Of a stretch of DNA of 64,000 nucleotides, positions 4,830-48,374 are shown in pieces. The stretch's first letter is position 1; each line of letters starts with the position of its first letter. The stretch lies in the NCBI RefSeq assembly GCF_009914755.1, contig NC_060936.1. The stretch is one strand, 5' to 3'. The position numbers and the translations under genes were made by a program. The notes under the pieces are model-generated. The model worked only from the letters and a program-made list of their open reading frames with translations, did not search any database and had not been told where the DNA came from. This stretch comes from the human T2T-CHM13v2.0 reference genome, Homo sapiens.

Positions 4830-4880
4830 CTGGGCCACTGCATTCCCCTCTGGGCACCTCATTCCCAGAGGCATGTAAGG
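4830..4880 (-). CDS. NCOR2: NCOR2 exon K (51 nt, symmetric cassette): (A)LHASGNEVPRGECSGP(A)
   Basis: Acceptor cttccag|CC, donor CAG|gtacga; phase 1/1; peptide matches the long SMRT isoform as recalled. Confidence 0.93.
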
Positions 4881-16091: not shown

Positions 16092-16475
<384 letters not shown>

Positions 16476-17723: not shown

Positions 17724-19154
17724 GTGCTGGCTGCCTGCCTGCTACACACAAGGCTCTAATGCAAATAAAACAACAGCAGCAGAAACATCAACACATCAGC
17801 CCGTGGCACGGCTAACTGACACACAGAGTTTGCAAAGCCCTTCAAAGACTTGGTTCCGTCTCATCCTTGCTGTCATGGCTGTGACCATTTTCCCATCCCC
17901 AGGAGGGGGAAATCTCGGTTCAGAGGGTCCCGCCAACTCACCCAAGCTTAGAGGACCAGCCAAGGGGGGCAACGCGGGCGTGGGGCCCCAGACTTCCTGC
18001 CCTCCGGGTCCTCTGGCCCCCGTGGCGTGGGGGTGGCACTGACTGACAGGCCACCTGTTCGCCTGCCGTGGCCCTGGGAGCCACGTGGCCTCACAGCCCG
18101 CTCCTCAGGGTTCCTCAAGGACAGGCGCAGAAGGGGAGGGCCGGGGCGTGGGATCAAGTGGCACCCGGCCCCTGACCTTTCCCTCCGCCCGCGCCAGCAG
18201 CAGCTGCCACTTCCAGAACCTGGCGGACAGGGCCGCGCGTTTATTTATATTTCCCCAGCCGGGGCCAAGAGAGCCCAGGCAAACACACCGGGCCAGAGGG
18301 ATCACAGACCCGGCACCCGGGTGGGAGAGGGCGAGAGGGGGCGGGTCTCCCATCTGGGCCTGCTGGGTGGGGTGGGCATGGAGAGCTCAGGGGGTGGGGT
18401 GAGGGTGGCCCAACAACACTGGGGAGGTTGACATTTCCAAACTCAGTCAATAAATAAGGAGGTAGCTAGGAGCCTGGCTGGGGGCTGGGGACCCTAATTA
18501 ACTCCGATCATGGGGGCAGTGGGAGTGGGTTGAGGGCAGAGGAGAGGGGATGGAGGTGGGGGTGGGGGTCACCCAGCCCTTCCTGAAAACATACGGCTCC
18601 CAAAGGAGCTGGGCAGAGTCATCCAGGCGCCTGGCCAGAGCTCGCTAGCAGTCTTGGCCAGCCCTTCTGCTCTCCGGCCTCAGTTTCCTTAACTGCCGTG
18701 TGAGGAGCCAGAGTGGGTGTCCCATTAGTGCCGGCCAGGGCTGCGGGGTAGGGGCAGGCTGGCACTGGCTTCCTCTGGTTCCTGTTCTGGGAAGCCCAGG
18801 CAGAGGGTGCCAGGCACGGAGAGAAAGACTTTCTACCCTACCGTGCCTTGGAGACCACCCCGCCAGACCCAGCTTGAAGCCCCCGTCCACTTGGAGAGAC
18901 CCCCTGTGCACACAGCATCACAGACCTTCCCAGGCACAGATCCAGGTCCCACCCCTGCTTCCAGGAGAGCTTCAGCCCAGCAGGGAGAGAGAGGAGAGGG
19001 CATGGGGGAAAGGATGGGCTGGGACCCCCATCCACTCCAGGGGCCCAGAACTCCGACTCCCCAGCTGCCCAGCCTCAAATCCCAGATGGCCACGTTGCGG
19101 TCCCTGTCCCTGCACCCGCAGTCCCCCATCCCCTCCCCAGGACCACTCACTCAC

Positions 19155-19200
19155 ATCCTCTCATTCGCGTCTCCCCCTCGGCCAAGTTTTCCGGAAACAT
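19155..19200 (-). CDS. NCOR2: Candidate coding part of an alternative internal first exon (MFPENLAEGETRMRG+T)
   Basis: ATG at 19200, 15 codons + 1 nt, then GAT|gtgagt; phase 1 matches the exon I acceptor; lies at the downstream edge of a CpG island. No transcript evidence available here. Confidence 0.5.
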
Positions 19201-20050
19201 AGGGCTGGGAAGATGCCCCAGGGAGCGGGCCGAAGTGGGCCGGCAGGCTGGGCGGCCGCGGTCGGCTCTGCGAGGCTGCTGGTTGGCGTCTGCTGGCGGC
19301 TCAGCTCAGCCTCACATCCTTCTCCGTCCCACGGTGAGGGAGGGAGGGAGGGAGGGAGGGAGCGAGGGAGGGAGGGACGCGGCGGGCGGAGGCTGGCTCG
19401 AGAGGGGCGGGCGGGAGGCAGCTCCTCACAAGTCCGCCTGCCTGTGGTGGCCCGGGGCTCCTCCAGCGGCCGCTGCCACCTCTGACGCCGTCCCCAAGCC
19501 GCTGTGGGCGCGCGAGGTGCCCTTCCCCGAGGGTGGTGGGTGGCGGGAAGTTCTCAGTGGTGCGTGTGGGATGCCCCTGGGCCAGGTATCACCGGGGCGC
19601 AGCGTGCCGAGCTCCTCCAGCACCAATGTGCCCAGTGCGGACGCTCAGCGAGCAATGCCGGCCAGAGCCCACAGACCCCCGGGCCGGGCAAAATCCAAGG
19701 ACCCAGGCCCAGCAGGGCAGCCGTGTCCCCCGCAGCCGGGCTCAGCTCTGATCTTCTTGCTGCCTGACCCAGCGAGACGCGGCAGGACTGAATGTGACCT
19801 CCAGACGGAGGCTCGCGGCGGGCGGGCAGGCGGGCGGGGGAGCGTGGCAGAGGCCCAGGTTCACAAGGGGCGGGCCAACTTGGCACTGGCTCCCCCTCCC
19901 TCTCTCCCCATCCGCGGCGGTGGCGGCGTCAGCAGTGGTAAGAACAGATGAGGGTTCCAGAAAAACAGAGCTTCTCCACCCCCGGCAGACAGGGAGCAAA
20001 CAGCTTCTTCCGCCATCATCCCCCGCCGCCCGTCCCCCCACCCTCCGTGT
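19200..20050. promoter_or_regulatory. Intragenic CpG island / putative internal promoter
   Basis: Visibly high CpG density versus flanks, several GGGCGG boxes (e.g. about 19384-19413, 19819-19836, 19868), (GGGA)n run 19337-19377, TGACG half-CRE at 19483, no transposons. Confidence 0.75.
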
Positions 20051-21319
20051 CAGTTCCACCTGAGCTCTGCCCCCTGCCTGGCCTGATGCTGCCGAGGCTG
20101 ACCGAGCCCTCTGTCGGGGACTGTGGGTGGGCAGGGCTAGCCTCGCATTCCGGAGGGATCCCGGGATTTGAGGAGCCTTTGCAGGGTGCACATGAGACCG
20201 CCAACCATTTAGGGGAGGGGGAAGGGTTTGGGGATTTGGGGTCCCCAAAGAGCCCTCTGCTGCTGGGGGGGTCTCGGGACCACAGCTGCCCCTTTCGTCC
20301 TCCTCCGAGAGCCCCTGCAGCCGTGAAGGAACACTGTGGGAAATGCCGGGGAGCCACCCAGAAGGTTGAAAGTTAACTGAGCTGAACTTTGGATCCTAGA
20401 TTCAGGTCACGACCGACTTCCCTGACTCTGGGATCATTAACCTGCTTTTCCCTTTAACTCCCAGCCCTTCCATCCTGCCCCCTAAAAATCTGGGGAGCAG
20501 AAGGCGTCTCTGGAATGTCCCTGCACCCCCAGCCCTCGTCCTGGGGCACGATGCCAGGGGAGGGCAACAAACCTCAACCACATCAGGGATCTGGGCCTCT
20601 CCACCTGAGTCCTGCCCTCTGCCCTCTGCAGGGGAGGTCTCAGTGCACTTTTAAGGATGCCAACCCCGTGAAATCACTCCTCTGCTTAAAATCTTCCAGT
20701 GACCACATGAAGCTCTTGGAATAAAATCCAAAGGCCCTAGCACGGCCCAGGTGACCCTTAGGAGCCAGCTCCATGAACCCGCCCAGCCTCTCTCTGGGTC
20801 ACTCGTGTGTGCCCCAGGGCCTTTGCACCAGCTGCTCCTGCTGCCTCCACGGGTTTTCTCACAGATGTGCCTTGTCTTCCCTCTGGTCTTGGCTCAAGTG
20901 ATGGCTCCTCAGAGAAGCCTTCCTTGCCCGCCCCTCCAAAGTGACCCCCCCCCGTCGCCCTGCCATCCCAGGGTTTGATCATCTTCATAGCTTTCACCGC
21001 CTCTGAAATTAGCTCCCTCGTCCCACTGCTCATCGGCAGGTGTCCGGGGCCTGCTGAGCACCCTGGGCATCTCTGCCACCCGTCTGGGTCCCTGGTAAGG
21101 AGCTTGCAAAGGAAGAGGGGGCTGTGCGTTTAGCTCTGCAGGGGGCCCCGAACCCTCCCAAAAGAGGCTGGGGTATCCCCCTTGACATCCAGGCACACGC
21201 CCCCAACACTCTGTGCCGGGGCGGAGATGGCAGATTCTGCCACCATGCCCTGTGGTCTGGATTCCCCGACCCCACTTCTAATTTCTAAGGAAGGAGTTTC
21301 GTTCTGAAGAGTCAGGAGG

Positions 21320-46725: not shown

Positions 46726-46970
46726 AAAGAAAGAGGGTCACATAATCTCCCTTTCTTTGTTCCTTTAAGGCCCTGGGAGGTACCGGGACCCCCACGAATC
46801 CAAAGACTCAGGCCCCCTGCTGTTCCTGAAGACACGCGCTGTCTCTCATGCTCCCTGCCTTTGCACTTGAGGGCCCCATCCCTGTCCGCCTGTGGGGCTG
46901 CTCCTCAACCTCATCTTTGGGGCCTTTTATTCTACGGAGTCTTCAAGGATGTGCCACCAATGCCACCTCC

Positions 46971-47360
46971 CAGGGAGACCGGCGGCACAGGGAGACCCCG
47001 CGGCACAGGGAGACCCGCGGCACAGATAGACCCCGCGGCACAGGGAGTCCCCGCGGCACAGATAGACCCCGCGGCACAGGGAGTCCCCGCGGCACAGATA
47101 GACCCGTGGCACAGGGAGACCCCACAGCACAGGGAGACCCGCGACACAGGGAGTCCCCGCGGCACAGATAGAACCCGCGGCACAGGGAGTCCCCGCGGCA
47201 CAGATAGACCCCGCGGCACAGGGAGTCCCCGCAGCACAGATAGACCCGTGGCACAGGGAGACCCCGCAGCACAGATAGACCCCGCGGCACAGGGAGACCC
47301 CGTGGCCCAGGGAGACCCCGTGGCACAGATAGACCCGCCGCACAGGGAGACCCGCGGCAC
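46971..47360. repeat. Minisatellite, 17-19-bp alternating units (ccgcggcacagggagt/ac; ccgcggcacagatagacc), about 20 copies
   Basis: Direct reading. Confidence 0.95.
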
Positions 47361-47479
47361 TGTCTTGAAGCCACCTGTTTACAATGGCTCTGAACAACCA
47401 GCATGAAGCTCCCCATGTCCTGCACACAATAAATGCTCAATCAATGGATGAGTCAGCAAGCTGGACATTCGCTCCGCCC

Positions 47480-47920
47480 AGAGCAAGCCGGACACTCACT
47501 CCTGAGAGCAAGCCGGACACTCACTCCACGGAGAGCAGGCCGGACAGTCACTCCACGGAGAGCAGGCCGGACAGTCACTCCACGGAGAGCAGGCCGGACA
47601 GTCACTCCATGGAGAGCAGGCCGGACAGTCACTCCACGGAGAGCAGACCAGACACTCACTCCACGGAGAGCAGGCCGGACACTCACTCCACGCAGAGCAG
47701 GCCGGACACTCACTCCACGGACAGCAGGCCGGACACTCACTCCACGGACAGCAGGCCGGACACTCACTCCACGGACAGCAGGCCGGACACTCACTCCACG
47801 GAGAGCAGGCCGGACACTCACTCCACGGACAGCAGGCCGGACACTCACTCCACGGAGAGCAGGCCGGACACTCACTCCACGAAGAGCAAGCCGGACACTC
47901 ATTCTACTGGACACTCACTC
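47480..47920. repeat. Minisatellite, 27-bp unit (gagcaggccggacactcactccacgga), about 15 copies
   Basis: Direct reading; 9-aa periodicity in the ORF track. Confidence 0.97.
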
Positions 47921-48374
47921 TACCACAGTACAGGCCAGGCCTCTACAACAGGATATGCCGGGCACCGACACCCCCCACCCTTCTTAAATTACCATGGTCT
48001 CCCCACCTCCCTCTGTGCAAATGTGGCTCTCACACAGGGGGAGGGGATGGGCCTCTGCTCTTCAGAGCCCCCAGCCCAGCTACCAGGAAGGGCTCCCACC
48101 ACAAGCCCAGCCTCAATGCCCCCAAACAGGTCATGGGAGGGGAACTGGGAAGGCCAGCAAGAGAATGAGCATACAGTAGGGGCCCAACAGACGCCTGATG
48201 ATGTTTTCCAAATACCTCTTGAGGCCGTTAGCCACCCTTCCTTTGTCACAATCCCCACCGCTCCCTGCTGCCTCTCATACCTCAGCATCTATATACTCCC
48301 TGACTGGCACTTACCTTTTTGCCTCTCAGTCTAGAAAATTCCTGAATGCACTTCAATTTCAAAAACACCGTAGC

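What the first reader, a model, noticed from the sequence alone, without database searches (positions are those of the whole stretch)
19149..20050. Intronic CpG island with an in-frame alternative first exon: candidate HDAC3-uncoupled short SMRT
Seen: on the NCOR2 strand the CpG/GC-box island is followed by a UTR-like stretch, then ATG TTT CCG GAA AAC TTG GCC GAG GGG GAG ACG CGA ATG AGA GGA T|GTGAGT (ATG at 19200, donor at 19155/19154). The leftover T plus exon I's first GT gives TGT, so the frame continues [24 protein letters not shown]...; two in-frame ATGs are available. Established: the GPS2/TBL1-binding RD1 and the HDAC3-activating DAD are encoded upstream of this point, while the nuclear-receptor interaction domains lie downstream. 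Inference: an internal promoter could make an SMRT that docks on receptors but lacks RD1, DAD and the first helix of SANT2, i.e. a built-in modulator or dominant negative. Caveats: both Kozak contexts are weak, a phase match has a 1-in-3 chance prior, and it may already be annotated.
Basis: partly seen in the sequence, partly recalled or inferred. Interest (0 to 1): 0.8.

Follow-up and report, generated by a model that had tools for sequence, protein, structure and literature searches.

The report
Already-annotated internal NCOR2 first exon
The CpG island inside the human NCOR2 (SMRT) gene does carry an in-frame alternative first exon, but public gene models of human, mouse and other mammals already contain it, so it is a real, conserved and functionally unstudied short isoform and not a new discovery.

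Summary
The sequence observation holds. On the minus strand an ATG at 19200 opens 46 coding bases that end at GAT|GTGAGT (exon end 19155). Splicing to exon 16357 continues the NCOR2 frame. The exon sits at the downstream edge of the window's largest CpG island (19065-20112).

ATG, donor and phase alone are not beyond chance: 2 of 7 GTRAGT sites and 196 of 659 GT sites in this intron pass the same test. The protein database decides the matter. A 162-aa human "NCOR2, partial" record starts with exactly the predicted 16 residues. Mouse isoform X23 (XP_017176251.1, 1940 aa) and models from a ground squirrel, a lynx and a pangolin carry the same peptide at 14-15 of 16 identities.

The isoform lacks the first 612 residues, which hold the GPS2/TBL1 region, the HDAC3-activating DAD and most of SANT2 helix 1. 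It keeps the BCL6 site, three CoRNR boxes and the C-terminal tail.

Verdict: a real, conserved alternative first exon that is already annotated. My searches found no functional study. The "HDAC3-uncoupled modulator" role is a reasonable but untested inference.

The parts
19065..20112 (.). CpG island, the presumed internal promoter. It is TATA-less and holds 8 GGGCGG boxes.
   Evidence: 1048 bp, GC 0.70, o/e 0.61, 78 CpG, the largest island in the window; motif census.
19753..19822 (.). RefSeq 'silencer' functional element inside the island
   Evidence: Hub annotation supplied with the finding; not tested here.
19336..19377 (-). (CCCT)n microsatellite (GAGG on the + strand), 10.5 copies, in the presumed promoter or 5' UTR
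   Evidence: TRF score 77; sequence.
19312..19317 (-). ATG-TGA start-stop. It is the only minus-strand ATG in the 710 nt upstream of the main ATG.
   Evidence: 1 ATG observed against 3.9 expected; 4.5% of 2000 shuffles had as few.
19306..19308 (-). In-frame TGA that closes the reading frame upstream of the start codon
19155..19200 (-). Coding part of the alternative first exon: ATG plus 15 codons plus one base (phase 1). The 5' end (TSS) is not determined.
   Evidence: It is identical to the N-terminus of human record P0052.
19149..19154 (-). 5' splice site GTGAGT (context GAT|GTGAGT), 7 of 9 consensus positions
   Evidence: the 12 annotated NCOR2 donors in the window score 6-9 of 9.
19145..19150 (-). 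Second GTGAGT 4 nt downstream. It is out of phase, and its use gives a frameshift and an early stop.
19055..19154 (-). G-triplet-rich start of the new intron (14 GGG in 100 nt)
   Evidence: intron mean 4.0, and 0.3% of windows reach 14. That such runs act as splicing enhancers is recalled knowledge.
16215..16357 (-). Constitutive NCOR2 exon (SANT2 helices 2-3) that accepts the splice
   Evidence: Hub annotation

Best explanation
The island at 19065-20112 is an internal, TATA-less CpG-island promoter of NCOR2. Transcripts that start in it carry a first exon whose coding part is 19200-19155 on the minus strand. This exon splices from GAT|GTGAGT to the constitutive exon at 16357. Translation from the ATG at 19200 gives a short SMRT of about 1900-1950 residues, in which 16 new residues replace the first 612.

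The short form cannot assemble the GPS2/TBL1/HDAC3 core because it lacks RD1 and the DAD, and its SANT2 is altered. It keeps the BCL6-binding motif, three CoRNR boxes and the C-terminal LSDSE tail.

Shown here: the sequence anatomy, the presence of the exon in public gene models of five mammals, conservation of the 16-residue peptide, and the domain content. Inferred: that the island is the promoter, that the protein accumulates, and that it competes with full-length SMRT/NCoR at receptors and BCL6 while delivering no DAD-activated HDAC3. The exon itself is already annotated, so nothing about its existence is new.
For: Sequence: ATG, frame and donor were verified.

Human record P0052 (162 aa, 'nuclear receptor corepressor 2, partial [Homo sapiens]') begins with the exact predicted 16 residues. 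It maps to 19200-19155, then 16355-16215, then 8801-8655, then 3210-3061.

Mouse XP_017176251.1 isoform X23 (P0091, 1940 aa, a cluster of 23 sequences) and the ground squirrel 'isoform 4-T4' (P0092, 1952 aa, 20 sequences) start with the same peptide. Lynx P0081 and pangolin P0122 contain it too. Identity to human is 15, 14, 15 and 15 of 16, and 13 of 16 columns are invariant in the 4-row alignment of human, mouse, squirrel and pangolin.

Conservation steps up at the ATG. In the 19 in-frame codons before it, only 7 of 19 (lynx) and 4 of 19 (pangolin) match human.

Context: this is the largest CpG island of the window. ATGs are depleted on the minus strand only (1 against 3.9 expected on minus; 5 against 4.4 on plus). 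The donor is as good as the annotated ones, and G-triplets are enriched after it.

Domains: Pfam finds in P0091 only SANT profile positions 18-46 of 46 and no GPS2_interact. A full-length orthologue (P0123) has GPS2_interact at 142-229 and two SANT stretches. The join is at residue 613 of 2510, and residues 295-612 map to window exons upstream of the island.

A review places the core-complex region at SMRT residues 167-480 and the DAD at 412-480 (PMC3315023, passages seen).
Against: No transcript, CAGE, chromatin or proteomic data could be consulted, so promoter activity and protein output in human tissues are not shown.

The RefSeq table supplied with the finding lists no exon here among its 3 NCOR2 transcripts. 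The human record is only a 3'-incomplete 162-aa model.

The squirrel, lynx and pangolin models may be projections or ab initio predictions. They show an intact ORF in those genomes, not expression.

Both start contexts are weak.

The island is moderate (o/e 0.61) and lies in a generally GC- and CpG-rich region.

The paralogue NCOR1 has only about 1.4 kb and no island in the homologous intron.

Synonymous versus non-synonymous change could not be measured, because no other vertebrate DNA was available. Peptide conservation could therefore partly reflect DNA-level constraint on a promoter or splice site.

Six literature searches found no paper on this isoform.
Confidence: 0.75

Rival explanations
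1. The island is an intragenic regulatory element (an enhancer or silencer, or an orphan CpG island) that fires only weak or tissue-restricted transcripts. The spliced RNA exists, which is why it is in annotation, but the short protein is not made in meaningful amounts. On this view the conserved peptide reflects constraint on promoter-proximal DNA and the splice site.
For: The hub table lists a RefSeq silencer at 19753-19822 and many enhancers nearby, and no RefSeq exon here. The Kozak context is weak at both ATGs. An ATG-TGA start-stop lies upstream at 19317. The human model is only a 162-aa fragment. No publication was found.
Against: Identity of 14-15 of 16 residues across four orders, with a sharp drop just upstream of the ATG (4-7 of 19), is easier to explain by coding constraint. 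The first Met, the frame and the donor phase are kept in all five species. Mouse has a full-length 1940-aa model.
Confidence: 0.18
2. The exon is not a first exon but an internal cassette. It would be spliced between exons 28584 and 16357 from the main promoter and would insert extra residues into SANT2 helix 1 of an otherwise full-length SMRT.
For: The pangolin model P0122 reads it this way: canonical ...TAKKG, then 30 extra residues, then the conserved peptide. In human, five AG sites between the upstream stop and the ATG would keep the frame. A (CCCT)n tract lies about 30-75 nt upstream of the most upstream of those sites.
Against: Those five acceptors have poor pyrimidine tracts (0.23-0.50 in positions -25 to -4), while the annotated acceptors printed beside them are visibly pyrimidine-rich. 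The human, mouse and squirrel models start at the Met. The exon lies in a CpG island. Sequence before the ATG is poorly conserved in frame. The pangolin record is a 'hypothetical protein' with other irregularities.
Confidence: 0.05
3. It is a chance ORF beside a chance donor in a GC-rich intron, with no biological use.
For: About 30% of donor-like sites in this intron pass the same ATG and phase test.
Against: Independent gene models in human and mouse, and an intact, nearly identical peptide in five mammals.
Confidence: 0.02

Closest known systems
Mouse Ncor2 predicted isoform X23 (XP_017176251.1; P0091) and the human 'NCOR2, partial' record (P0052)
   Same: They have the same first coding exon, the same junction to LLEHGRNW, and 15 of 16 (mouse) or 16 of 16 (human record) identical residues. 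This is the same object.
   Different: The human record is 3'-incomplete and skips the small exon 4830-4880, which the mouse model keeps. Neither comes with functional data that I could find.
The original short SMRT cDNA (s-SMRT/TRAC) versus the extended SMRTe/SMRT-alpha
   Same: It is an SMRT form without the N-terminal repression and HDAC3-activating region but with the receptor-interaction domains. It is the historical precedent for an N-terminally short SMRT. This is recalled; only the titles of Park 1999, Ordentlich 1999 and Sande 1996 were seen, in a reference list.
   Different: As I recall, that clone starts roughly 400 residues further downstream and was not tied to this exon or to a CpG-island promoter. 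The papers were not held, so the comparison is untested.
Known SMRT/NCoR isoform diversity by alternative splicing (alpha, gamma, tau, epsilon and others)
   Same: It is the same gene and the same idea, that isoforms tune which partners the corepressor binds (PMC5069798 and PMC4554918, passages seen; PMC3315023).
   Different: Those variants change the C-terminal CoRNR-box region by splicing and keep the N-terminal repression domains. Term searches of those two papers found no mention of an NCOR promoter, first exon or start site. Here the N-terminus is changed through promoter choice.
Intragenic ('orphan') CpG-island alternative promoters
   Same: It is a CpG island in a gene body with a first exon at its downstream edge, giving an N-terminally truncated product. 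This is general knowledge, recalled; the title of Maunakea 2010 was seen in a reference list.
   Different: Promoter activity and its methylation control were not tested for this island.

Membership tests
CpG island | Length of at least 200 bp (strict: at least 500 bp), GC of at least 0.50 (0.55), and CpG observed/expected of at least 0.60 (0.65) | tested here: met
   19065-20112 has GC 0.70 and o/e 0.61. The strict segment 19073-20013 is 941 bp with GC 0.70 and o/e 0.63 as a whole, and every 200-bp window in it passes 0.65.
Alternative first exon of NCOR2 | Start codon, open frame and a 5' splice site in phase with the next constitutive exon | tested here: met
   the donor matches 7 of 9 consensus positions, and the fusion is in frame.
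Alternative first exon of NCOR2 | Presence in independent gene models and conservation in other species | tested here: met
   human, mouse, squirrel, lynx and pangolin, at 14-16 of 16 residues. The independence of the last three models is unknown.
Alternative first exon of NCOR2 | A mapped transcription start site with promoter chromatin upstream of the exon | not testable with these tools
   No CAGE, RNA-seq or ChIP data were available. There is only indirect support: the island, the GC boxes and the minus-strand ATG depletion.
SMRT/NCoR core repression scaffold (GPS2-TBL1-HDAC3 assembly) | GPS2/TBL1-interaction region (Pfam PF15784) and the DAD (SANT1 with its N-terminal motif; SMRT 412-480) | tested here: not met
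   P0091 has no PF15784 and only one partial SANT stretch; the isoform starts at residue 613 of the full-length protein. The short form is therefore an NCOR2 product but not a core-complex scaffold.
SANT/Myb three-helix domain (PF00249), second copy (HID) | A complete 46-position profile that includes helix 1 with its conserved Trp | tested here: inconclusive
   only profile positions 18-46 match, and the Trp of RWTEEE is replaced. AlphaFold (4-row alignment, mean pLDDT 66.8) nevertheless draws a helix over residues 6-20 that continues into the retained LLEH. Foldseek's best hit is 2LTP (67 columns, E 1.4e-4).
Nuclear-receptor and BCL6 docking corepressor | CoRNR boxes, the BCL6-binding motif and the C-terminal LSDSE tail | tested here: met
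   in P0091, CoRNR-like motifs lie at 1436, 1558 and 1764, GRSIHEIPR at 822 and LSDSE at the C-terminus. The motif definitions are recalled.

The most novel reading that the evidence does not exclude
A short SMRT driven by an internal CpG-island promoter and conserved across boreoeutherian mammals is a physiological regulator. Its 16 new residues rebuild helix 1 of SANT2 without the canonical Trp. The protein lacks RD1 and the DAD, so it occupies nuclear receptors, BCL6 and other partners without bringing DAD-activated HDAC3. The ratio of long to short SMRT, set by promoter choice or island methylation, would then tune repression strength. This could account for some HDAC3-independent corepressor effects.
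Probability: 0.2. Interest if true: 0.65.

Novelty: already known. Interest (0 to 1): 0.3.

Why it matters
SMRT/NCoR repress through HDAC3, which is activated by the DAD. A natural isoform that keeps every transcription-factor docking site but cannot activate HDAC3 would be a built-in brake or competitor. It would bear on nuclear-receptor signalling, BCL6 biology and the interpretation of NCOR2 knock-outs, antibodies and siRNAs that target only N- or C-terminal parts.

The exon's existence is not new, because it is in public models. What remains open is whether the protein is made, where, and what it does. In the searchable library I found no paper that addresses this. Subscription-journal papers and supplementary tables were not searched and may hold such data.

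Tried and rejected
1. Paralogue test. The homologous NCOR1 intron (G000 C17, between about 16020333 and 16021730) is about 1.4 kb with no CpG island. The only island in the 20 kb fetched is at 16037136-16037431. This gives no support from the paralogue, and it is uninformative given the age of the duplication.

2. Chance test of ATG, donor and phase. About 30% of donor-like sites pass, so this feature alone proves nothing.

3. Literature. Searches and a peptide/accession search (0 papers) found nothing on an internal NCOR2 promoter or this isoform. One search was badly framed, because it did not force the gene name. Papers opened by passage concern other NCOR2 sites or other genes. The hg19 positions 124,908,601 and 124,844,786 named there are, by my own rough and unverified coordinate conversion, not this island.

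4. Papers not held: the EMBO J 2003 SANT2 paper, Malartre 2004, Goodson 2005 and Park 1999. The s-SMRT comparison therefore rests on recall.

6. Cassette-exon reading: considered and judged unlikely.

7. AlphaFold and Foldseek on the human partial protein give only a suggestion about helix 1, because the alignment is shallow and the pTM is 0.37.

8. DNA-level conservation (dN/dS, conservation of the ATG and GTGAGT) could not be run, because no non-human vertebrate genome is available in these tools.

9. The whole-genome search shows that the 301-nt exon region is single-copy in this assembly.

Full report
**1. The observation.**
An ATG lies at 19200, followed by 46 coding bases ending in ...AGA GGA T. 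The donor is GAT|GTGAGT, so the last exon base is 19155. The constitutive NCOR2 exon 16357-16215 begins with GT CTC CTG. The spare T therefore makes a Cys codon, and the reading continues as [18 protein letters not shown]..., the second half of the SANT2 domain. A second in-frame ATG lies at 19164. Both ATGs have C at -3, so the contexts are weak. An in-frame TGA at 19308 closes the frame upstream.

The island is real. The stretch 19065-20112 is 1048 bp with GC 0.70, CpG o/e 0.61 and 78 CpGs, against a window-wide o/e of 0.35. It is the longest of 41 relaxed-criteria stretches and one of only two that pass the stricter 500-bp criteria. It carries 8 GGGCGG boxes and no TATA box.

**2. Is it more than chance?**
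The coincidence of ATG, open frame, donor and phase is not. In the same 12,226-nt intron, 2 of 7 GTRAGT sites, 9 of 29 GTRAG sites and 196 of 659 GT dinucleotides have an in-phase ATG with no intervening stop.

Several contextual features do stand out:
- The exon sits at the downstream edge of the single large island.
- The 710 nt upstream of the ATG hold one minus-strand ATG, an ATG-TGA start-stop at 19317, against 3.9 expected; 4.5% of 2000 dinucleotide shuffles had as few. The plus strand shows no such depletion, with 5 against 4.4.
- The donor matches 7 of 9 consensus positions, inside the 6-9 range of the 12 annotated NCOR2 donors in the window.
- The first 100 nt of the new intron hold 14 GGG triplets against an intron mean of 4.0, and 0.3% of windows reach 14.

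A second GTGAGT lies 4 nt downstream and is out of phase. Its use would give an early stop.

**3. The decisive evidence.**
The large protein database turned out to hold named vertebrate proteins. A search with the 47-residue SANT2 exon among longer proteins returned three relevant records, all fetched:
- A 162-aa record named "nuclear receptor corepressor 2, partial [Homo sapiens]" (P0052). Its first 16 residues are exactly the predicted ones.
- A 1940-aa mouse record, XP_017176251.1 "isoform X23" (P0091, a cluster of 23 sequences).
- A 1952-aa golden-mantled ground squirrel "isoform 4-T4" (P0092, 20 sequences).

The mouse and squirrel records start with the same peptide carrying one and two substitutions.

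Two further searches used the first 40 residues of the mouse protein. Among 440 significant hits of 1067-3395 aa, three clusters carried the new N-terminus: P0091, P0092 and a giant pangolin model, P0122. Among 68 significant hits of 30-1066 aa, two carried it: P0052 and an Iberian lynx partial model, P0081. The sequences were fetched.

Identity to the human peptide is 15 of 16 in mouse, lynx and pangolin and 14 of 16 in squirrel. In the alignment of human, mouse, squirrel and pangolin, 13 of 16 columns are invariant. The first Met, the frame and the ...GC|LLEH junction are kept in all five species. The second Met is not kept in squirrel.

Where models read upstream of the Met, in lynx and pangolin, the in-frame translation matches human at only 7 of 19 and 4 of 19 positions. 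Conservation therefore steps up at the start codon.

The human record maps to 19200-19155, 16355-16215, 8801-8655 and 3210-3061. It skips the small exon 4830-4880, which the mouse model includes, and it stops inside an exon. It is thus a 3'-incomplete transcript model.

**4. What the product is.**
Pfam finds in the mouse short form only positions 18-46 of the 46-position SANT/Myb profile and no GPS2-interaction domain. A full-length orthologue (P0123, 2510 aa) has GPS2_interact at 142-229 and two SANT stretches.

The short form joins the full-length sequence at residue 613. Residues 295-612 of the full-length protein map to window exons 61396-28582, all transcriptionally upstream of the island. 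A structural review places the GPS2/TBL1/HDAC3-recruiting region at SMRT 167-480 and the DAD at 412-480, and it describes SANT2 as the histone-interaction domain (PMC3315023, passages seen).

The short form retains three CoRNR-like motifs, the BCL6-binding core and the C-terminal LSDSE (the motif definitions are recalled).

An AlphaFold model of the human 162-aa record used a 4-row alignment and reached mean pLDDT 66.8 and pTM 0.37. It draws a helix over residues 6-20 that runs from the new peptide into the retained LLEH, followed by the two remaining SANT helices. Foldseek's best match is the solved SANT2 of NCOR2, 2LTP. This hints that the new peptide replaces helix 1, though without its conserved Trp. 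It is weak evidence.

**5. Mechanism.**
The best reading is an internal CpG-island promoter plus an alternative first exon that produce an N-terminally truncated SMRT. This form cannot build the GPS2-TBL1-HDAC3 core but can still dock on nuclear receptors, BCL6 and C-terminal partners.

Whether it acts as a dominant negative is open. The middle region it keeps is reported to bind other deacetylases (abstracts of PMC3111469 and PMC4498904, seen in the listing). As I recall, the historical short SMRT clone still repressed in reporter assays.

Rivals considered:
- A weakly used regulatory-element promoter whose protein is negligible (0.18).
- A cassette exon, as the pangolin model reads it. In human this is disfavoured by the poor pyrimidine tracts of the five frame-keeping acceptors, at 0.23-0.50 (0.05).
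- Pure chance (0.02).

**6. Limits.**
No transcript, CAGE, chromatin, Ribo-seq or MS data and no non-human vertebrate DNA were available, so TSS, expression and codon-level selection remain untested. The squirrel, lynx and pangolin models may be projections or ab initio calls. The RefSeq table supplied with the finding lists no exon here. The NCOR1 paralogue has a 1.4-kb homologous intron without an island.

**7. Novelty and verdict.**
The exon and the isoform already exist in public gene models for human (partial) and mouse (full length), so the finding is already known as an object. The literature searches found no study of its promoter or function. Subscription journals and supplementary tables were not covered.

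Interest is modest at 0.3. It is a correct piece of reading that rediscovers an annotated but uncharacterised isoform. The conserved 16-residue N-terminus makes a functional short SMRT worth a targeted experiment.

Noticed in passing
window 46872-47998: A second CpG-rich island in another NCOR2 intron, between exons 33026 and 50552. The strict segment 46874-47393 has GC 0.67 and o/e 0.66. It may be another intragenic promoter or enhancer.
   Followed up: no
window 19336-19377: A (CCCT)n microsatellite on the gene strand, 10.5 copies, inside the presumed promoter or 5' UTR. It is likely length-polymorphic and a run of GGGAGGG motifs on the other strand.
   Followed up: partly
window 19312-19317 (-): An ATG immediately followed by TGA (a start-stop). 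It is the only upstream ATG in 710 nt, and it could damp translation of the short isoform if the TSS lies upstream of it.
   Followed up: partly
window 19145-19154 (-): Two identical GTGAGT donors 4 nt apart. The second is out of phase and would give a frameshifted product with an early stop.
   Followed up: yes
proteins P0060 (Gekko kuhli) and P0086 (Phrynocephalus forsythii): These lizard gene models begin with short, unrelated N-termini that also end in Cys just before LLEHGRNW. They may reflect an analogous first exon in squamates or be ab initio artefacts.
   Followed up: no
window 4830-4880 (-): The human partial model skips this 51-nt exon, whereas mouse isoform X23 includes its counterpart. 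This is alternative splicing downstream of the new first exon.
   Followed up: partly
G000 C17:16020195-16021790 (loci L003, L008): In NCOR1 the intron that splits SANT2 at the same place is only about 1.4 kb and has no CpG island. The 12.2-kb intron with its island is specific to NCOR2.
   Followed up: yes
protein P0122 (Smutsia gigantea): This pangolin 'hypothetical protein' reads the alternative exon as an internal exon after ...TAKKG, with 30 extra residues before the conserved Met. It is probably an annotation artefact, but it is the basis of the cassette-exon rival.
   Followed up: partly
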